In this document: piece by piece, positions 651 to 62,520 of the stretch
Layout: each line of letters starts with the position of its first letter
Numbering within the stretch: the first letter of the stretch is position 1
Sequence record: MH051913
Direction: 5' to 3' (one strand)
DNA: 64,000 nucleotides
Origin: Enterobacteria phage vB_EcoM_IME281
Made by a program: the position numbers and the translations under genes
The notes under the pieces: generated by a model
Database searches by the model: none
What the model saw: the letters and a program-made list of their open reading frames with translations, nothing else
Told to the model about the DNA's origin: nothing

Positions 651-675
651 AAGGGACCGTAAGGTCCCTTTTTAG
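651..675. terminator. Bidirectional hairpin (aagggacc-gtaa-ggtccctt + T-run) between convergent rnlB and gp24 paralog
   Basis: Perfect 8-bp inverted repeat with tetraloop followed by TTTT. Confidence 0.6.
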
Positions 676-1955
676 TTTTTATCCAATGGAGGAAGTTTTA
701 CACCAAGATAAGAACTCAATTGACTTTGATTAGCCATTTTGTCCATATCCGCACCATCAATAATACGAGCTTCTTTGTCGTCTTTAGCGACGGTATAAGG
801 ATTCGCAGTCAATGCATACCGAGCCAATAAAGATATGGTAGGTTGCAATGAATCCGGGTCTACAATAACCTTGAATTCACCTACTGAAGTATCACCTTCA
901 TCATCAACCTCTTCGAGCCCTTCCGTATAAGGCGCATAATACAAAGATGCGACCGTCTGCCCTTCACCCATCTGAGCATTTACACCGACAATAACATAAT
1001 CACACGGGCTATTCATATCGGCATAAAGTGGTAGACCGTTCTTTAATACGCCATAAGCTAATTCGTCTTGGTCTTCTTTTTTCTCAACCCAACCAGATGC
1101 AGCTAAAATAGCAGCGCAGCGAGAAGAAGCTACTGCATAAGTACCTGCAAACGAAGTCTGGCGTTGAACAGCAGAATTCATTTCACACATATAGTAATAC
1201 AAGGTACGTGCTCGGTCTTGGGCGTTATCGTATTGTGGGTCTGTTAAGTTCAAGACACCTTTCTCAGAAACTCCTTGGACTTTAAAACGAGAACTTACTG
1301 TAATTAAGGACTGTAATACGTCTTTATTAATTTCTTCAGCCATTTGAATAGCCAAAATATTGTCTATAAAGTCCGGTGCATTAAACCCGTTGGATTCTAA
1401 ATCCTGGGCCAGTTCCACAGTCAAAGAAGTTTTAAGTTTACGCGATTTAACTTCAGTCTGCCACTTATCAATACGGAACCCTGCTTCAGCAATCTCAGGA
1501 TGGCCTTTTTCAAATTTATTGGTAAAGGCTGCATCAGACATCATACGAATATGGCCCGCGGCAATAGCTTCTGAAATAACTTCACTCAAATCGGTTTCAG
1601 TTGTTCCTGCAAACGGAGAAGCTTCTAATACCTTGAAAACCACACTTTCGAATTGGAACATATCGCCAACAGCATATGCTTCGTCTTTATCGGTGAACTC
1701 AGGAATGTTTTTACGTTCGAACATACCAATTTCACCCGCAAAAGTGGCTCCACCGAGATAAGTCATTTTATCGTCTGGGTTTAAAACACGGACACCATAT
1801 AATGCTGCAACAGGTTGAGTAGTTTTTTGTTCAGCAACAAGGGCTTTAAAAATTCTTTTATTAGTTGCCTGGGTATATGAAAGAAGATTAGGACGGGCGA
1901 CCTGGTTGGCCGCCGTCAAAGTTGATTCTTGTATTAATGCATTAATCTTTTTCAT
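672..1955 (-). CDS. Second, divergent copy of gp24-like head vertex protein (major-capsid fold)
   Basis: 427 aa; clearly related to the adjacent gp24 and to gp23 (…SRKLKTSLTVELAQDLESNGF…YYAPYTEGL…ANPYTVAKDDKEARIID…). Confidence 0.75.
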   Translation of the reverse strand: MKKINALIQESTLTAANQVARPNLLSYTQATNKRIFKALVAEQKTTQPVAALYGVRVLNPDDKMTYLGGATFAGEIGMFERKNIPEFTDKDEAYAVGDMFQFESVVFKVLEASPFAGTTETDLSEVISEAIAAGHIRMMSDAAFTNKFEKGHPEIAEAGFRIDKWQTEVKSRKLKTSLTVELAQDLESNGFNAPDFIDNILAIQMAEEINKDVLQSLITVSSRFKVQGVSEKGVLNLTDPQYDNAQDRARTLYYYMCEMNSAVQRQTSFAGTYAVASSRCAAILAASGWVEKKEDQDELAYGVLKNGLPLYADMNSPCDYVIVGVNAQMGEGQTVASLYYAPYTEGLEEVDDEGDTSVGEFKVIVDPDSLQPTISLLARYALTANPYTVAKDDKEARIIDGADMDKMANQSQLSSYLGVKLPPLDKN

Positions 1956-3236
1956 TTATGCCTCGTAAATAATTGGAGGAAGTTTAACACCAAGCAGATA
2001 AGACATGTTACTCTGGCCTGCCATTAAATCCATATTAGTTGCGTCTATAACACGAGCTTCTTTATCATCTTTAGCAACGGTATACGGGTTTGCTGAAAGT
2101 GCATAACGAACCATCAGAGAAATAGCCGGTTGCAAACTATCAGGGTCTACAATAACTTTATAGGCGCCAACATGTTCTTGGTCGTCTAAATCCAGACCTT
2201 CGGTATACGGAGCATAGAAAATAGAACCAACTACTTCATTACCACCGTAATCTTCTTTAACGCCTACGATAACATAATCTAAAGGACTATTAACATCACA
2301 GAATACAGGCAATCCGTTAATCAAATAACCATAAGCAGTTTCTGGGAGCCAAGCTTCATCTTCAGGTTTGTGTTTCAACCAACCTGAACCAGCGAGCATC
2401 GCAGCAACACGACTAGATGCGACAACAAACGTACCTGAATAAGAAGTGGTTTTCTGAATTTCAGAATTCATCTCACAAACCATTTCGTATAATTTACGTG
2501 CAGATTCTGGAGCACTGTCATAAGACAAATCGACAATACCGTTATCAGACACACCAGTAACTTTATAGCGTTTAGATACAGTTATTAGAGACTGCAGAAC
2601 GTCTTTATTAATTTCATCAGCCATTACAGTGGCTAAAAGGTCTTCTAAGAACGCAGGGGCGTCGAAGCCATTAGATTCCATGTCTTGGGCTAGTTCTACA
2701 GTCAAAGCGGTTTTAAGCTTACGGGACTTAACAGGGGCGTTCCATTTATTAACCTGGAATACTGCATTGCTAATTTCAACATCACCTGCTTCGAATTTTT
2801 CTGTGTGAGCCGCATCAGGAACCAGACGACATGTTAATGACACTAAACCTTCTTGAAGAGCATCAGCCAATTCTGTGGCGCTAGTGGACGCGAGTGGGCT
2901 TGCTTTAAGAGCCTTATAAACCACATTCTGGTACTTGAAATATCCACCCTGAGCAATCGCCTGGGCCTTATCTGTGAGTTCTGGGATAGTTTCACGGTCT
3001 TTAGAACCAACTTCACCACCATAAGAGGCACCTGTCTGGAAACTAAATTCATTATCAGGGGTAAGATATTTGACACCATACAGTGCAGCAATAGGCTGGC
3101 TAGTACGTTGTTCGGCGATAATATCACGGTAAATCAATTTGGTTGTAGCACGGGTCAAAGCAACAAGATTAGGGCGACCCAATGAGTTGCTGGAAGTAGT
3201 TGTTGACTCGCGCAGTAATTCGTTAATCTTTGCCAT
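1956..3236 (-). CDS. 24: gp24 head vertex protein
   Basis: 426 aa; strong match to recalled T4 gp24 (MAKINELLRESTTT…VKSRKLKT…VELAQD…NGFDAP.FLEDLLAT.MADEINKD). Confidence 0.88.
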   Translation of the reverse strand: MAKINELLRESTTTSSNSLGRPNLVALTRATTKLIYRDIIAEQRTSQPIAALYGVKYLTPDNEFSFQTGASYGGEVGSKDRETIPELTDKAQAIAQGGYFKYQNVVYKALKASPLASTSATELADALQEGLVSLTCRLVPDAAHTEKFEAGDVEISNAVFQVNKWNAPVKSRKLKTALTVELAQDMESNGFDAPAFLEDLLATVMADEINKDVLQSLITVSKRYKVTGVSDNGIVDLSYDSAPESARKLYEMVCEMNSEIQKTTSYSGTFVVASSRVAAMLAGSGWLKHKPEDEAWLPETAYGYLINGLPVFCDVNSPLDYVIVGVKEDYGGNEVVGSIFYAPYTEGLDLDDQEHVGAYKVIVDPDSLQPAISLMVRYALSANPYTVAKDDKEARVIDATNMDLMAGQSNMSYLLGVKLPPIIYEA

Positions 3237-3263
3237 TGCGCTTTCCTTATTGAGGGTATATGT

Positions 3264-3271
3264 TTATTTAT
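3264..3271 (-). promoter_or_regulatory. T4-type late promoter box TATAAATA upstream of gp24
   Basis: Plus-strand TATTTATA about 28 nt upstream of the gp24 start. Confidence 0.55.
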
Positions 3272-3278
3272 AAAAGTT

Positions 3279-3322
3279 GTTTACAGCAAGATTCTCACAT
3301 GTTACTATAGACCTATCAAAAC
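3279..3322 (+). promoter_or_regulatory. Early promoter/stem-loop cassette (PeSL-like): GTTTAC -35, TACTATAG -10, ACCTATCAA, flanking inverted repeat
   Basis: tgtttaca…catgttactatagacctatcaaaacatg; IR catgtt/aacatg around the -10. Confidence 0.6.
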
Positions 3323-3337
3323 ATGAGGAGATTAAAA

Positions 3338-3604
3338 ATGAACAAGTTAAACTTTATTCGTACTACTCTTTCCGCTCTTGATAAAGACATCAAAGCTCTG
3401 GTAGAAAAATTCGGTACCAATCCTAACGGTAATGCAGTTAATGCATTGGTTAAGAAATACGAAGCCCTGGCTTATGAAACTGATTTCTGGTGGAACGGTG
3501 AATATTCTACCCATACCAAAGACAAATCCGGTAACTGGCTGAAAATCCAAGAAAATCGTATTGACTTCCGTGATATCATAAACCGTCGAGTTAAGATTGC
3601 ATAG
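3338..3604 (+). CDS. Small hypothetical early protein inserted between gp24 and gp23 on the opposite strand
   Basis: ORF with GAGGAG SD 7 nt upstream of the ATG at 3338; preceded by PeSL-like promoter, followed by hairpin. Confidence 0.5.
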   Translation: MNKLNFIRTTLSALDKDIKALVEKFGTNPNGNAVNALVKKYEALAYETDFWWNGEYSTHTKDKSGNWLKIQENRIDFRDIINRRVKIA

Positions 3605-3618
3605 TATAGAAACAAGAA

Positions 3619-3640
3619 TGGGAGACCGAAGTCTCCCATA
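3619..3640. terminator. Hairpin gggagac-cgaa-gtctccc; probable terminator for gp23 (minus) and the small plus ORF
   Basis: 7-bp perfect stem with tetraloop; same stem sequence recurs at 40225 and 41740. Confidence 0.6.
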
Positions 3641-3653
3641 ATAAGGTTATATC

Positions 3654-5213
3654 TTAGATACCTTTAACATATACGCGACGGAAGTAACCATTCAGACCGA
3701 GGCTGTTAACGATGTCAGGCATACCGCTCTGAATACGTTTGGTAGGAGCCTGTGCAGACGGGTCAGCGAACGGGTTGATACCGATACCGTAACGAGTTTT
3801 GAAGCCCATTACCGGTTGGAAGTTCTTCGGATCGGAACCACGCAGCGGGGTCAGTGCAACGTACGGAGCATAGTAGATACCTGCGTCCATTTCGTTAGCG
3901 CCTTTATAACCGATGGTGAAGTAATCGGAACGTGCATACTGGTCGATGTAAACGCGATATTTACCACCAAGAACACCGGCAAATACTGCTTTGGTTGTGT
4001 CAACGTTGAAACCTTGACCCAGACCTTGAGCTGCATAACTTACAGAAGTATCAACTGCAGCCAGTACGTTAACTACGTTACGGGAAGCGATGATGAAGTT
4101 ACCAGCACCACGACCGGTCTGACGAGCGATTTCGGCTGCTTCTTTATCAATCTGGAACAGAAGGGCTTTAAAGCTCTCACCGGCCCAACGAGCACCACGG
4201 ATATCAATCGGGTCCTGGAAGTCAAACACACCAGCTTTAGCGCCAACGGTGTTGGTCATACCAGATTTACCAACCTGTGCAGAGTAGTTAATCCAATCGA
4301 TAACTTCACGGTTGATTTCGAGCATAATTTCGGTAGCAAGGATACCGGACAGTTCAGCATCTGCATCCATACCGTGTACTGCACGAAGGTCCTGTGCCAG
4401 TTCGATAGAGTAGCTTGCTTTCAGCTGACGGGATTTAGCTTCGATAACTTGTTTGTCGATGCGGAAGCCCATTTCGTTCCACGGGTTATCGGTAGAACCG
4501 TTAAAGCCTTCCTGAAGTTCAGCGATAGAAGTAGCCATACCTTCAGCCAATTCAGCCAACTTACCAGCTTCAATCAAAGCGGTAACAGCAGCATCCAGTT
4601 TAGCGGCATCAGTAGCAGCAGCATCAACGGTTACGGCTTCAACAGCCTGGAAGTGTGCAGCACCGGTAGCTTCGAAGAAGTGAGAATAAATTTTACCAAC
4701 TTCCAGAACTTTGCTTGCAGCCAGTGCTTCGAAAGATTCAGCAGCACCCTGACCAGAGAACATAGAGTCTGGAGAATACATCGGATGGAAAGCTTCTTTA
4801 GCGCCAGAAGCGATAGGGTCTTTACCATAAACTGCACGAAGGGCAAATACCTGGCCGGTAGGGTTATTCAGAGGCTGAACACCACAAATATCAAAAGCAA
4901 TCAGATGAGGAATAGCACGACGAACCATACCCATTACTGCCGGCCCAATCTGAGTTACAGCACCAGAAGTCTGGCCAGCTGCGATATTGGTAGCATCATA
5001 ACCGTGGTCACCACCAATTTCAGCTTCGGTCAGGAAAGAACCAAATGCTTCAGAGATTTTTTCATCACGATATTCCGGAGCAGTCAGGATGTCTTGTTCC
5101 TGGTTTTCGAAAATTTTAGCGATGATAGCTTGTTTAGAAGCACCCACGATTTCAGGAAGGGCTTCGTTTTCCAGCAGAGCGGACCATTTTTGAACTAATG
5201 CATTCTTTTTCAT
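3654..5213 (-). CDS. 23: gp23 major capsid protein
   Basis: 519 aa; long near-identical stretches to recalled T4 gp23 (…NPWNEMGFRIDKQVIEAKSRQLKA.YSIELAQDLRAVHGMDADAELSGILATEIMLEINREV…). Confidence 0.95.
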   Translation of the reverse strand: MKKNALVQKWSALLENEALPEIVGASKQAIIAKIFENQEQDILTAPEYRDEKISEAFGSFLTEAEIGGDHGYDATNIAAGQTSGAVTQIGPAVMGMVRRAIPHLIAFDICGVQPLNNPTGQVFALRAVYGKDPIASGAKEAFHPMYSPDSMFSGQGAAESFEALAASKVLEVGKIYSHFFEATGAAHFQAVEAVTVDAAATDAAKLDAAVTALIEAGKLAELAEGMATSIAELQEGFNGSTDNPWNEMGFRIDKQVIEAKSRQLKASYSIELAQDLRAVHGMDADAELSGILATEIMLEINREVIDWINYSAQVGKSGMTNTVGAKAGVFDFQDPIDIRGARWAGESFKALLFQIDKEAAEIARQTGRGAGNFIIASRNVVNVLAAVDTSVSYAAQGLGQGFNVDTTKAVFAGVLGGKYRVYIDQYARSDYFTIGYKGANEMDAGIYYAPYVALTPLRGSDPKNFQPVMGFKTRYGIGINPFADPSAQAPTKRIQSGMPDIVNSLGLNGYFRRVYVKGI

Positions 5214-5234: not shown

Positions 5235-6050
5235 TTAAGAAATTCGTGATGCTGCGATTGCAGACAGGTCCGCGAAGGACAGGGTAGGCTTAGCGCCTTT
5301 TTCTTCAACTGCTTCTGAAATGTAATTCAGTGCCGCAGCATCGTCTACATTTTTATTTATAGCGGCTTCGGTGATTGGGTTTCCAACGTCAGACTGACCT
5401 TTAACCATTTCAACAATAGCGCCAATTTTTTTACCGAATGCATCGGAATAATCCATGCCTTCTACCAGAGAACTGACTTTTTCTTTTTGAGATTCGGTCA
5501 GGTCTTTAGTTGCTTCCGTAACAGCAACTTCACGCTGTACGTAATTAATATACGCATCGCGCATACCAACTTCTTCGAACAGACGAGCGGTTTCATCTTT
5601 CTGCTCTTGGAGCTCTTCTTCCATTTCAGCAACAACATCTACTGCTTCTTCTGGAACAACCACATTGTGTTCAACAAACAGTTCTTTCATACCCATCAAC
5701 ATGGATTCGAACAGTTCGGCTTTAATACCTTTATCAACAGCCAGCTGGTTTTCAGCCATCCATTCTTTAGCAACGTGGTCAAGGAAACGACCGGCAGCTT
5801 CTTGGATTTTCTTATCGGCTTTTTCTTCAGCTTCTTCTTTATTTTTCTCGACTTCTTCTTCCGCTTTTTCAGCGATTTTAGCGATGTGAGATTCAGCCAG
5901 TTTCACGGCGTGTTGCTTGACGGTAGCTTCGAATACAGTGCCGAAAGTTTCTTTTGCTTCCGGAGAAATATTAACTGATTCGAAAATACTGTCAAGAGCA
6001 ACGGAAGCATCAATATTCTGTGCTTCGGCGATCAGTTGTTCTTTAAGCAT
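5235..6050 (-). CDS. 22: gp22 prohead core scaffold protein
   Basis: 271 aa, acidic/coiled-coil, position between gp21 and gp23. Confidence 0.85.
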   Translation of the reverse strand: MLKEQLIAEAQNIDASVALDSIFESVNISPEAKETFGTVFEATVKQHAVKLAESHIAKIAEKAEEEVEKNKEEAEEKADKKIQEAAGRFLDHVAKEWMAENQLAVDKGIKAELFESMLMGMKELFVEHNVVVPEEAVDVVAEMEEELQEQKDETARLFEEVGMRDAYINYVQREVAVTEATKDLTESQKEKVSSLVEGMDYSDAFGKKIGAIVEMVKGQSDVGNPITEAAINKNVDDAAALNYISEAVEEKGAKPTLSFADLSAIAASRIS

Positions 6051-7144: not shown

Positions 7145-7389
7145 TATTCATCGTCCTCGTCATCATCCGCATCGTCAGATTCTTTTTTGTCTTTCTTATC
7201 TGCTTTATCGGATTTTTCGTCGTCTTCGTCATCTTCGTCAGCTTCTTCGCCTTCAATCATAACGGAGCGAGCAATTTCTGCTTTACGGGCTTCAATCAAA
7301 GCGGTTACTCGAGATTCGATAAGCGGGGCTGCTGCTTTACGAACTGCTACGAGGTCGTTTGATTTAATAGCTTCGATTAAATCTTCCAT
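7144..7389 (-). CDS. 67: gp67 prohead core protein
   Basis: 81 aa with poly-acidic C-terminus (…[34 protein letters not shown]); synteny. Confidence 0.75.
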
Positions 7390-8963
7390 TAGAAATCCTC
7401 TTCTTCTTCATCTGGGTTTTGGAAACGAGCCTCTTTAGACTCTTCTTCAATTTGCTTAGCTTCTTGATTAATTTCTTCGTCGGTCATTTGGAGGAAATCT
7501 TTCATAGCCGTTTGATGTGAAATATACTTACCAATAAATGGTTCAGCCATCGTTAGCATATTGATTCTGCGTTCCATGATTTCAGCATCTTTCATTTCAC
7601 TGAAATAGCTATCACGGTTAAACGTAACTTTAATATTATTTATTTCCTTTTCCCACTCATCTTCTGTAATAATCTTTTTAAGAATGAGGTTTGTTTTTAA
7701 CGGGTCTAGGAAAATTTCTTCAAATTTGTTTTGTAGTTGACGAATCCATTTAGAGAATTTTAATTCGTCACGAGTGATTGCTGTACCGGCATCAAACATA
7801 ACACCAGAATTAGACTCGCTAGGGATACGTGATTCAGGAACACGCAACGCACGGTAAAGTGCTGTGCGGAAATAAAGAACGTCATCCATATCACTCATAC
7901 CAGTAGCACCTGGCATTGTATCAACTTCTGTTACCGCTTTACCATCACGACGTTGCAACCAATAGTCTTCAGTCATGGACATATTGTGTTGTTGGTTTTT
8001 AATTTTACCTGTCGAAGCATCATACACCACACGGTTTTTCATCGTGTTCATGATATGTTGCATTTGTGCTGCAGCCTTACGTGAAGGCATATTACCTGTA
8101 TCGATATAAAACACACGACGGTCAGGAGCACGTGTAATACGGTAGATGACCATTGCGTCTTCCATCAATTTAAGCTGGTTTGCAGGCTTAATAGCACGTT
8201 GCAAATAGCCAATGATGTTTTTACCACAACAATCTAATAATCCAGAATGAGCATAAACCACTGCAGCACGAGGAATTTTAACTTTAGTCCCGGCTGAATA
8301 AATGCGTCCGTCAGCGCAATAACTTTCATGGCCTGTATCATAAACGAAAAACTCGCGATATCCGTCTACAACTTTAACGCCATCTTCCATACGTGTAACG
8401 ATTTCACGAATATATTGGACTTGGCGTGGGTCTAAGCGACGAAGCTCTTGTACGCCATCTTTCATTTTTTTAGGGTTTATAATTTTATGAAAGAAAATTC
8501 TTGAGTCTACATACCAGCGTTGGAAATGGTCAGTACCTTTACGTTGGAAATTTAAAAGGTTTAAAACTTCACTGAATTCGGCCAAGATTTTATCTTTAAT
8601 TGCTTGACTAAATTCTGTCCCGTCTAAATTCAATGCAACTACTTCTTTATCATCCTCATAGACAATAGCGTCAGACACAATTTCCTGTACGGCGTTGTCG
8701 ACTTCATAGTTGTTCATTAAATTACGGTAGGTATCAATAAGTTCCCTGGTATTTTTAACTTCAGGCTCATTACTACCAAACATCTGTTGCATAAGAGCAT
8801 TATAAGGAATATTTTGCTCTTGTGTCTCAATTTCGCGAGCGCCATCATCAAGCTTAGGTGCGGTGACAGACTCTAAATTGTTATTAATTTGTTGTTTATA
8901 TTCTTTTTCGTCTTCATTAGCCCATGGCTTAAGAAAACTTAATATTGTATTAAAGTTTGCCAT
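7389..8963 (-). CDS. 20: gp20 portal vertex protein
   Basis: 524 aa; synteny and size match T4 gp20. Confidence 0.9.
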
Positions 8964-32483: not shown

Positions 32484-32491
32484 TATAAATA
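32484..32491 (+). promoter_or_regulatory. Late promoter box TATAAATA for gp4 (plus strand)
   Basis: 26 nt upstream of the gp4 ATG. Confidence 0.55.
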
Positions 32492-36691: not shown

Positions 36692-36733
36692 GTTTACAAT
36701 GGGCTTTAGTGATGATACTATAGCCCTATCAAA
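36692..36733 (+). promoter_or_regulatory. PeSL-like early promoter cassette
   Basis: gtttacaatgggctttagtgatgatactatagccctatcaa. Confidence 0.6.
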
Positions 36734-40609: not shown

Positions 40610-40650
40610 GTTTACATGGGCTCATGATTAAGATATTATGAGCCCATAAT
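40610..40650 (+). promoter_or_regulatory. PeSL-like early promoter (variant stem tgggctcat…atgagccca)
   Basis: gtttacatgggctcatgattaagatattatgagccca. Confidence 0.55.
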
Positions 40651-41066: not shown

Positions 41067-41103
41067 GTTTACATCCCTCAGAGGACAGGGTATAATGTCC
41101 TCA
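41067..41103 (+). promoter_or_regulatory. PeSL-like early promoter (GTTTAC -35, TATAAT inside gaggaca…tgtcctc stem)
   Basis: gtttacatccctcagaggacagggtataatgtcctc. Confidence 0.55.
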
Positions 41104-62478: not shown

Positions 62479-62520
62479 GTTTACATCCAAGGACGGATGG
62501 AGTATAATCCTTTTATCAAC
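62479..62520 (+). promoter_or_regulatory. Early promoter (GTTTAC -35, TATAAT -10 in aagga…tcctt stem)
   Basis: gtttacatccaaggacggatggagtataatcctt. Confidence 0.55.

What the first reader, a model, noticed from the sequence alone, without database searches (positions are those of the whole stretch)
3237..3653. Early-promoter cassette plus small ORF inserted antisense between gp24 and gp23
Within the conserved late capsid cluster, the gp24-gp23 intergenic region carries a PeSL-like promoter on the plus strand, an 89-aa ORF with a strong SD, and a shared hairpin terminator. T4 carries the homing endonuclease gene segD at this position, so it is a known insertion hotspot. The ORF here has no GIY-YIG or HNH motif and no function I can assign.
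Basis: partly seen in the sequence, partly recalled or inferred. Interest (0 to 1): 0.45.

Follow-up and report, generated by a model that had tools for sequence, protein, structure and literature searches.

The report
Early orphan gene between capsid genes
The spacer between the two capsid genes of this T4-like (JS98-type) coliphage holds a small backwards-facing gene with its own early-type promoter; it is a real but dispensable gene of unknown function, already annotated as "hypothetical" in dozens of relatives, at a site where other phages carry a selfish nuclease gene.

Summary
Window 3237-3653 is exactly the gene 24a / gene 23 spacer of a Dhakavirus (JS98/Bp7/IME08-like, 98% to phage LHE83). 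On the strand opposite the late capsid genes it holds a T4-type early promoter (GTTTACA-17-TACTAT with TGn), a GAGGAG Shine-Dalgarno and an ORF at 3338-3604. The ORF is 88 aa, not 89. A 9-bp hairpin follows at 3618-3639.

The ORF is a genuine gene: dN/dS is 0.04-0.09, the AlphaFold model has pLDDT 94, and it matches PHROG 6003 (JS98 orf173, VR7ORF190c, RB69ORF188c/189c). It has no Pfam, PDB, PADLOC or structural relative and no homologue in T4.

It is not a recent insertion. It sits at this site in Dhaka-, Gapriver- and Mosigviruses. It is absent from T2 and T4 and frameshifted in RB69. In IME08 and about 38 database phages a segD-like GIY-YIG homing endonuclease lies 3 nt downstream of it. 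ORF plus endonuclease has moved as one block into Mosigviruses.

The promoter has no PeSL stem-loop. The hairpin has a U-tract only in the gene 23 sense.

Verdict: an ordinary, already annotated moron-like early ORFan cassette at a known plastic site, function unknown. Low interest.

The parts
3241..3248 (-). Shine-Dalgarno of gene 24a (AAGGAAAG on the minus strand), 5 nt before the gene 24a ATG at 3236-3234. This is context, not part of the cassette.
   Evidence: Read directly from the sequence. Conserved in all relatives aligned.
3265..3272 (-). T4-type late promoter TATAAATA for gene 24a. It lies back-to-back with the early promoter, 6 nt from the GTTTACA element.
   Evidence: Exact match: 16 matches in the window against 7.1 expected. 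Those in the first 32 kb are on the minus (late-gene) strand, apart from one + strand match at 32484. Present at the same place in T2, T4, JS98, VR7, JS09, L010 and L012.
3279..3308 (+). T4-type early (sigma-70) promoter: -35 GTTTACA at 3279-3285, 17-nt spacer, TGn at 3300-3302, -10 TACTAT at 3303-3308. An A/T-rich UP-like stretch lies upstream at 3262-3278. The transcription start near 3315 is inferred.
   Evidence: (5 matches against 0.32 expected, all + strand). Hexamers and spacing are conserved over four genera with a divergent spacer. No stem-loop (z +1.37).
3325..3330 (+). Shine-Dalgarno GAGGAG, 7 nt upstream of the ATG.
   Evidence: Sequence. GGAG is conserved in all homologous loci.
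3338..3604 (+). 88-aa ORF with a TAG stop at 3602-3604. It is a member of PHROG 6003 (JS98 orf173, VR7ORF190c, RB69ORF188c/189c). The protein is 10.3 kDa, pI 9.5, soluble, with a helix-helix-beta-hairpin-helix architecture.
   Evidence: phrog_6003 at E 2.3e-49. dN/dS 0.04-0.09. AF2 pLDDT 94.2 and pTM 0.80. No Pfam, NCBIfam, PADLOC or PDB match. No structural neighbour. pI and GRAVY.
3618..3639 (-). Stem-loop AUGGGAGAC-UUCG-GUCUCCCAU followed by UCUUGUUUCU in the minus sense. This is the intrinsic terminator / 3' stabiliser of the gene 23 late mRNA. In the + sense it marks the end of the ORF unit but lacks a U-tract.
   Evidence: The stem covaries between genera: GGGAGAC/GTCTCCC here, GGGAACC/GGTTCCC in T4, GGGACC/GGTCCC in T2 and VR7.
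3590..3617 (+). Empty docking site of the segD-like homing endonuclease gene. In IME08 and LF82-5 a 660-672-bp GIY-YIG gene sits between the last codons of the ORF (KIA* becomes KAA*) and TATAGAAACAAGAATGGGAG.
   Evidence: DNA alignment. Annotations of IME08 and LF82-5.

Best explanation
The spacer holds an autonomous, moron-like early transcription unit.

How it is expressed (inferred). A T4-type sigma-70 early promoter fires right after infection on the strand opposite the late capsid genes. Its short leader carries a strong SD and an 88-aa ORF. The unit ends at the hairpin that terminates gene 23 mRNA from the other side.

The product. It is a small, basic (pI 9.5), soluble protein that is confidently predicted to fold as helix-helix-beta-hairpin-helix. 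It has an invariant N-G-N loop and no catalytic motif.

What it most likely does (inferred). It acts stoichiometrically, binding a nucleic acid or an acidic host or phage protein. It is probably a non-essential host-takeover or competition accessory factor, like most small T-even early ORFans.

Role of the locus in relatives (inferred). The same promoter and ORF serve as the expression platform and landing pad for a segD-type homing endonuclease. That endonuclease sits 3 nt after the ORF stop, with no SD of its own. The ORF is then carried along when the endonuclease block moves between phages.

Shown: the sequence features, that the ORF is a real gene, its distribution, its dispensability and its linkage to the endonuclease. 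Inferred: expression timing, the binding mode of action, and co-conversion as the transfer mechanism.
For: - Promoter, SD, ORF and hairpin are at the stated coordinates.
- The promoter class is enriched and strand-specific: 5 matches against 0.32 expected, all on the + strand, each followed by SD + ORF.
- The hexamers, spacing, SD and hairpin are phylogenetically footprinted across Dhaka-, Gapriver-, Mosigvirus and two metagenomic relatives.
- Purifying selection: dN/dS 0.04-0.09 in close pairs and 0.16-0.37 in distant pairs.
- The AF2 model has pLDDT 94.
- Outside T-evens, family members lie in long same-strand arrays of small ORFs in Vequintavirinae-like phages, a typical early-region context.
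- Dispensable: absent from T2 and T4 and carrying two frameshifts in RB69.
- Basic pI of 9.5-9.6 in all clades, with no transmembrane segment.
- Endonuclease linkage: IME08 and LF82-5 have ORF + GIY-YIG gene. Of 85 database records with the Dhaka-type ORF, 38 also carry the endonuclease.
- LF82-5 (Mosigvirus) is 90-100% JS09-like in genes 24 and 23 but 93-100% IME08-like over most of the ORF + endonuclease segment (identity falls at the endonuclease 3' end). There is a clean left breakpoint at the SD.
Against: - No expression data. 'Early' rests only on the promoter type and the strand.
- The -10 hexamer TACTAT matches the TATAAT consensus at only 4 of 6 positions (9 of 12 for both hexamers).
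- The generic promoter scan is not above chance on its own.
- No homology or fold match supports any molecular function. The 'binder' idea rests only on size, charge and the absence of motifs.
- The + strand has no canonical terminator, so the transcript's 3' end is undefined.
- Transfer of the ORF + endonuclease block could come from ordinary homologous recombination at conserved flanks rather than endonuclease-driven co-conversion.
Confidence: 0.75

Rival explanations
1. The ORF is a decayed remnant of a homing endonuclease (segD-like or HNH) left behind at the hotspot.
For: Same site, strand and promoter position as T4 segD. Endonuclease genes do decay at such sites (T4 mobA and I-TevIII are annotated as defective).
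Against: - No GIY-YIG or HNH signal in Pfam for any of 19 family members.
- It does not align with segD; in IME08 both genes are present side by side.
- Strong purifying selection.
- A compact, confident fold unrelated to nuclease folds.
Confidence: 0.02
2. The important element is the promoter, not the protein. Because there is no + strand terminator, early transcription runs antisense into gene 23 and makes 'anti-late' RNA that delays or tunes major capsid protein expression. On this view the ORF is secondary.
For: - The + strand tail after the hairpin is U-poor, so read-through into antisense gene 23 is plausible.
- The promoter is kept even in T4, where the ORF is missing (TTTACA-17-TATTAT with TG).
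- Early anti-late RNA in T4 is established knowledge (recalled, not checked here).
Against: - dN/dS of 0.04-0.09 shows that the protein sequence itself is selected.
- T2 and most Tequatroviruses have no such promoter, so it is not a general requirement for controlling gene 23.
- In VR7 the hairpin has T-runs on both sides, which would stop read-through.
- Untranslated antisense RNA downstream of the stop codon would be a Rho substrate (inference).
Confidence: 0.12
3. ORF and segD-like endonuclease form one composite mobile element. The ORF is its cargo or helper (for example it holds the cleavage site or modulates the nuclease), and the window phage is a derivative that lost the endonuclease.
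For: - The endonuclease follows 3 nt after the ORF stop with no SD of its own.
- ORF + endonuclease moved as one block into Mosigviruses, replacing a 33%-identical resident allele, with the left breakpoint at the SD.
- 38 of 85 Dhaka-type ORFs are linked to the endonuclease.
Against: - Most carriers of the family have no endonuclease: 47 of 85 Dhaka-type records, and all the Gapriver- and native Mosigvirus alleles and Vequintavirinae-like copies inspected here.
- T4 segD lives without the ORF.
- The empty site in the window and in JS98 looks intact and shows no deletion scar.
- Co-conversion of flanking markers is the expected by-product of homing and needs no functional link.
Confidence: 0.1
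4. The ORF is a late or structural head-assembly accessory, placed with the capsid genes because it functions with them.
For: Its location inside the head gene cluster, which is conserved across three genera.
Against: - It is on the opposite strand to all late genes.
- There is no TATAAATA on its strand upstream.
- It has a sigma-70 early-type promoter.
- Homologues in Vequintavirinae-like phages lie among small early-type ORFs, not head genes.
- It is absent from T4 and T2 and broken in RB69, all of which build the same capsid.
Confidence: 0.03

Closest known systems
PHROG 6003 / JS98 orf173, VR7ORF190c, RB69ORF188c+189c (annotated hypothetical proteins of Tevenvirinae)
   Same: Full-length HMM match (E 2.3e-49). 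95% identical to JS98 orf173, 64% to VR7ORF190c and 32-33% to the Mosigvirus allele. Same position and orientation between genes 23 and 24.
   Different: Nothing of substance; this is the same gene. No member has a known function.
T4 segD locus (free-standing GIY-YIG homing endonuclease, antisense between genes 23 and 24; Edgell et al. 2010, PMC2988022)
   Same: Same intergenic site, the same antisense orientation, a positionally homologous TTTACA-17-TAnnAT promoter next to the gene 24 late promoter, and the same downstream UUCG hairpin.
   Different: The window has no endonuclease gene. The 88-aa ORF is unrelated to SegD. T4 lacks the ORF, while IME08 and LF82-5 have both genes.
PeSL (promoter-early stem-loop) ORFan cassettes of RB49/phi1 (Arbiol et al. 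2010, PMC2839356)
   Same: A/T-rich stretch, strong sigma-70-like early promoter, SD and a small ORFan. Presence or absence differs between related phages. The breakpoint of the cross-genus exchange falls between the -10 and the ATG, as in PeSL-mediated exchanges.
   Different: There is no stem-loop in or next to this promoter. It lies inside the conserved late head module rather than a hyperplastic region. The flanks hold no second PeSL copy for mini-circle formation.
Morons of lambdoid phages (the Hendrix/Juhala concept, as discussed in PMC2839356)
   Same: A single extra gene with its own promoter, placed between two genes of a conserved late operon and transcribed against it. Absent from some relatives.
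   Different: A lytic T-even context. Its own terminator is doubtful. It is expressed (presumably) early in lytic growth rather than from a prophage.

Membership tests
PHROG 6003 (JS98 orf173 / RB69ORF188c family) | Significant full-length match to the family HMM | tested here: met
   E 2.3e-49, residues 1-88 against profile positions 1-88 of 90.
PHROG 6003 (JS98 orf173 / RB69ORF188c family) | Synteny: antisense between gene 23 and gene 24 in Tevenvirinae | tested here: met
   Same arrangement in JS98, IME08, VR7, JS09, O157tp3, LF82-5, L010 and L012.
PeSL regulatory cassette (Arbiol et al. 2010) | Strong sigma-70-like early promoter with an A/T-rich upstream region, followed by SD and ATG | tested here: met
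   GTTTACA-17-TACTAT with TGn, A/T-rich upstream, GAGGAG SD. Promoter activity itself was not tested.
PeSL regulatory cassette (Arbiol et al. 2010) | Stable stem-loop within or overlapping the promoter | tested here: not met
   Window 3272-3322 folds at -0.5 kcal/mol, z +1.37. Promoters at 36692 and 40610 in the same window fold with z -3.1 and -4.0.
PeSL regulatory cassette (Arbiol et al. 2010) | Location in a hyperplastic region, flanked by further PeSLs that allow excision as a mini-circle | tested here: not met
   It lies in the conserved head module. No second promoter copy or direct repeat flanks the ORF.
Moron | Extra gene with its own promoter between conserved genes, absent from some relatives | tested here: met
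   T2 has an 83-bp spacer with only the late promoter and the hairpin. T4 lacks the ORF.
Moron | Own transcription terminator | tested here: inconclusive
   A hairpin is present, but the U-tract is only on the opposite strand.
GIY-YIG (SegD-like) or HNH homing endonuclease | GIY-YIG or HNH catalytic domain | tested here: not met
   No such Pfam hit for any of 19 family members at E up to 5. The fold is a helical bundle plus a beta-hairpin.
T4-type early promoter | GTTTAC-type -35, 17-nt spacing, TAnnAT -10, A/T-rich upstream, on the early strand | tested here: met
   Conserved across genera.
T4-type early promoter | Transcription by unmodified host RNA polymerase in the first minutes of infection | not testable with these tools
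   Needs RNA-seq or primer extension on infected cells.
Intrinsic terminator serving the + strand ORF ('shared' terminator) | G+C-rich hairpin followed by a U-tract on the + strand | tested here: not met
   The terminator scan called only the minus strand. The + strand tail is AAUAAGGUUAUAUC. VR7 alone has T-runs on both sides.

The most novel reading that the evidence does not exclude
The 88-aa protein is the founding member of a new small fold that acts as an early inhibitor of a host function or defence system. Alternatively, or in addition, it is functionally tied to the segD-like endonuclease that docks behind it, for example by carrying the cleavage site or by coupling the nuclease's translation. 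In that case ORF + endonuclease would be a composite mobile unit able to overwrite 33%-identical alleles across phage genera.
Probability: 0.15. Interest if true: 0.5.

Novelty: already known. Interest (0 to 1): 0.2.

Why it matters
It matters little for this window. The gene is already annotated as 'hypothetical' in JS98, Bp7, IME08, LHE83 and many other genomes, and it is catalogued as PHROG 6003.

The useful by-products are comparative:
- The 23/24 spacer is a clean four-state example of T-even plasticity: empty, endonuclease only, ORF only, and ORF plus endonuclease.
- There is clear cross-genus replacement of an allele together with a homing endonuclease.
- T4 segD does have a plausible sigma-70 promoter, although a review reported that none had been found.
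- The protein is a confidently folded, strongly conserved orphan. It would be a reasonable low-cost candidate in screens for phage early proteins that are toxic to the host or counter host defences.

Tried and rejected
- Pfam: only DUF5380 at E 0.12, and only in the near-identical Dhaka members, so noise.
- NCBIfam, PADLOC and a PDB sequence-profile search gave nothing meaningful.
- An exhaustive HMM search of 1.84 billion representative proteins gave 9 hits. Seven are the family itself, as small phage proteins or short fragments (one a probable chimera). Two are long repeat proteins matching through low-complexity stretches.
- Foldseek against the PDB: nothing at E below 1.
- BFVD returned only the family's own member.
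- The afdb50 library was unavailable.
- A profile search of six-frame ORFs of T4 and of the window found no paralogue or T4 homologue; best non-self E 0.04.
- Rfam on 2500-4500 found nothing.
- A repeat search found no flanking direct or inverted repeats that would mark a transposon-like element.
- Scans of IMG/VR viral contigs returned only 6 near relatives with the window protein, and nothing with the distant clade member.
- A possible SD-sequestering pairing (ACATGTT with AACATGA) is no better than shuffled sequence, and its 5' arm lies upstream of the predicted transcription start.
- tblastn's apparent '1-72 only' coverage suggested a variable C-terminus. The protein alignment shows this was an artefact.
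- Literature searches for the ORF names returned no paper. Sokolov et al. 2018 on SegD is not held in the library.

Full report
**Identity of the window.** The region belongs to a T-even phage of the genus Dhakavirus. Window 3100-3800 is 98.0% identical to Escherichia phage LHE83 and 93-97.6% identical to PSD2002, Bp7, QL01, JS98, JS10 and IME08. The ORF map shows the canonical head module on the minus strand: gene 20 (7389-8963), 67, 68, 21, 22 (5235-6050), 23 (3654-5213), then two tandem gene 24 paralogues, 24a (1956-3236) and 24b (672-1955). The finding's coordinates, 3237-3653, are exactly the 23/24a spacer.

**Checking the observation.**
- On the minus strand, next to gene 24a, are its SD (AAGGAAAG) and a late promoter TATAAATA at 3265-3272.
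- Six bases away on the + strand starts GTTTACA (3279-3285). It is followed by 17 nt, a TGn, and TACTAT (3303-3308).
- A single sigma-70 consensus hit is not significant in the generic scan: 2 found, 2.2 expected.
- The T4-style pattern GTTTAC-N18-TAnnAT is significant. It occurs 5 times in the window against 0.32 expected, always on the + strand. Each match is followed within 30-45 nt by a GGAG-type SD and an ORF.
- The hexamers, the 17-nt spacing, the SD and the late promoter are kept in JS98, IME08, VR7, JS09, O157tp3, LF82-5 and two metagenomic relatives, while the spacer sequences differ. This is a phylogenetic footprint.
- The SD GAGGAG (3325-3330) lies 7 nt before the ATG at 3338.
- The ORF runs to the TAG at 3602-3604 and is 88 aa, not 89. 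The upstream in-frame ATG at 3323, used in the IME08 annotation, overlaps the SD and is not conserved.
- The hairpin at 3618-3639 is stable: -15 to -16 kcal/mol, z -3.0 to -3.75.

- PeSL elements are defined as an early promoter plus a stem-loop (Arbiol et al. 2010, PMC2839356). The early promoters at 36692 and 40610 in this window do have such stem-loops (z -3.1 and -4.0). The one at 3279 has none (z +1.37), although it aligns with them outside the stem.
- The hairpin is a terminator only in the gene 23 sense. There it reads C(UUCG)G followed by UCUUGUUUCU. The + strand tail is U-poor and was not called as a terminator.
- The stem covaries among genera: GGGAGAC/GTCTCCC here, GGGAACC/GGTTCCC in T4, GGGACC/GGTCCC in T2 and VR7. 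It is also present in T2, which has no antisense gene. So it belongs to gene 23. Only VR7 has T-runs on both sides.

**The ORF is a real gene.**
- It matches PHROG 6003 end to end (E 2.3e-49).
- Pairwise Nei-Gojobori dN/dS is 0.09 against JS98, 0.09 against VR5, 0.04 against LF82-5 and 0.16-0.37 for distant pairs.
- With a 19-sequence alignment, AlphaFold2 gives pLDDT 94.2 and pTM 0.80. The model has helix 3-25, a loop with the invariant N30-G31-N32, helix 31-48, a beta-hairpin at 52-61 and 67-71, and helix 77-87.
- The protein is 10.3 kDa, hydrophilic, and has no transmembrane segment. Its pI is 9.5, and the basic pI is kept (9.5-9.6) in all clades.

**No function can be transferred from known families.**
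- Pfam gives only noise: DUF5380 at E 0.12, restricted to near-identical members.
- NCBIfam, PADLOC and PDB profile searches are empty.
- An exhaustive HMM search of 1.84 billion cluster representatives finds 9 proteins. Seven are the family itself, as small phage proteins or short fragments (one a probable chimera), and two are repeat proteins matching through low complexity.
- Foldseek against the PDB finds nothing at E below 1. BFVD returns only the family's own member.
- A profile search against six-frame ORFs of T4 and of this window finds no homologue or paralogue.

**Distribution.**
- tblastn finds the gene in 222 phage records.
- In every locus inspected from Dhakavirus, Gaprivervirus (VR7ORF190c, 64% identity), Mosigvirus (JS09, O157tp3; 32-33% identity) and the metagenomic T-even relatives, it lies antisense between genes 23 and 24.
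- A further clade (39-41% identity) occurs in Vequintavirinae-like phages such as Acinetobacter phage ABPH49. There it sits in long same-strand arrays of small ORFs typical of early regions.
- It is dispensable. T2 has an 83-bp spacer with only the late promoter and the hairpin. Most Tequatroviruses look the same. T4 has segD instead. The RB69 reference copy carries two frameshifts and is annotated as two mini-ORFs.

**The hotspot and the endonuclease link.**
- In IME08 (Dhakavirus) and LF82-5 (Mosigvirus), a 660-672-bp GIY-YIG gene follows the ORF after 3 nt and has no SD of its own. It is inserted between the last codons of the ORF and TATAGAAACAAGAATGGGAG.
- Of 85 records with the Dhaka-type ORF, 38 have this ORF + endonuclease arrangement.
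- LF82-5 is 90-100% identical to the Mosigvirus JS09 through gene 24 and the promoter, up to the SD.
- It is then 93-100% identical to IME08 across the ORF and most of the endonuclease gene.
- It becomes JS09-like again within the last roughly 20 codons of gene 23.
- So the resident 33%-identical allele was overwritten by a Dhaka-type ORF + endonuclease block. Co-conversion during homing would produce this pattern, but the mechanism is inferred.
- T4's segD has, at the homologous place, TTTACA-17-TATTAT with TG. This is the best sigma-70 match in that region. The review by Edgell et al. (PMC2988022) states that no segD promoter had been identified.

**Interpretation.**
- Best supported: a moron-like early accessory gene cassette that is old in this lineage, non-essential, and encodes a small basic protein acting by binding rather than catalysis.
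- In some relatives the cassette doubles as the expression platform and landing pad for a segD-type endonuclease.
- Rivals: endonuclease remnant (rejected); a promoter whose main product is anti-late antisense RNA (possible as a side effect, but it cannot explain selection on the protein); a composite ORF + endonuclease element (not excluded, but most carriers lack the endonuclease); a late head accessory (rejected on strand, promoter and distribution).

**Novelty and score.** The gene and its position are already in public annotations (JS98 orf173, RB69ORF188c/189c, VR7ORF190c, PHROG 6003). The site's plasticity is textbook T4 biology. What remains unknown is the protein's function. Interest is low (0.2).

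Noticed in passing
window 672-1955 (-) and 1956-3236 (-): Two tandem gene 24 (capsid vertex) paralogues, 56% identical over their full length. The same duplication is annotated in JS98, IME08 and VR7 but not in T4 or in Mosigviruses.
   Followed up: partly
window 36692-36721, 40610-40639, 41067-41096, 62479-62508 (+): Four more GTTTAC-N18-TAnnAT early-type promoters, each followed by SD + ORF. Those at 36692 and 40610 carry true PeSL-style stem-loops spanning the spacer and -10 (z -3.1 and -4.0).
   Followed up: partly
L022 (RB69 AY303349) 1479-1719: The RB69 reference copy of this ORF has a +1 and a -1 indel relative to JS09. It is therefore annotated as two mini-ORFs (RB69ORF189c, 29 aa, and RB69ORF188c, 41 aa). 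This is either a pseudogene or sequencing errors in the 2003 record.
   Followed up: partly
L003 (T4 NC_000866) 3282-3254 (-): T4 has TTTACA-17-TATTAT preceded by TG directly upstream of segD on the segD strand, positionally homologous to the window's promoter. The 2010 review (PMC2988022) says no segD-specific promoter could be identified.
   Followed up: partly
L004 (LF82-5, Mosigvirus) 3490-~4500: A Dhakavirus-type ORF + segD-like endonuclease block (93-100% identical to IME08 over most of its length) replaces the resident Mosigvirus allele (33% aa identity). The left breakpoint is at the Shine-Dalgarno and the right one is inside the last roughly 20 codons of gene 23. About 38 database phages share the block.
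   Followed up: yes
P0023 (ENA, 701-bp contig): A 160-aa predicted protein whose last roughly 35 residues contain a 32-aa stretch of this ORF's family fused to unrelated sequence. Probably a chimeric metagenome assembly.
   Followed up: no
P0019 / L010 4001-4273: A 90-aa family member lying between gp23 and gp24 on a 173-kb T-even contig is named 'NADPH-dependent curcumin reductase CurA' by JGI. This is an evident mis-annotation.
   Followed up: no
L007 (VR7) downstream of VR7ORF190c: In Gaprivervirus the 23/ORF hairpin (GGGACC/GGTCCC) has T-runs on both sides. There it could be a genuinely bidirectional terminator, unlike in the window.
   Followed up: no
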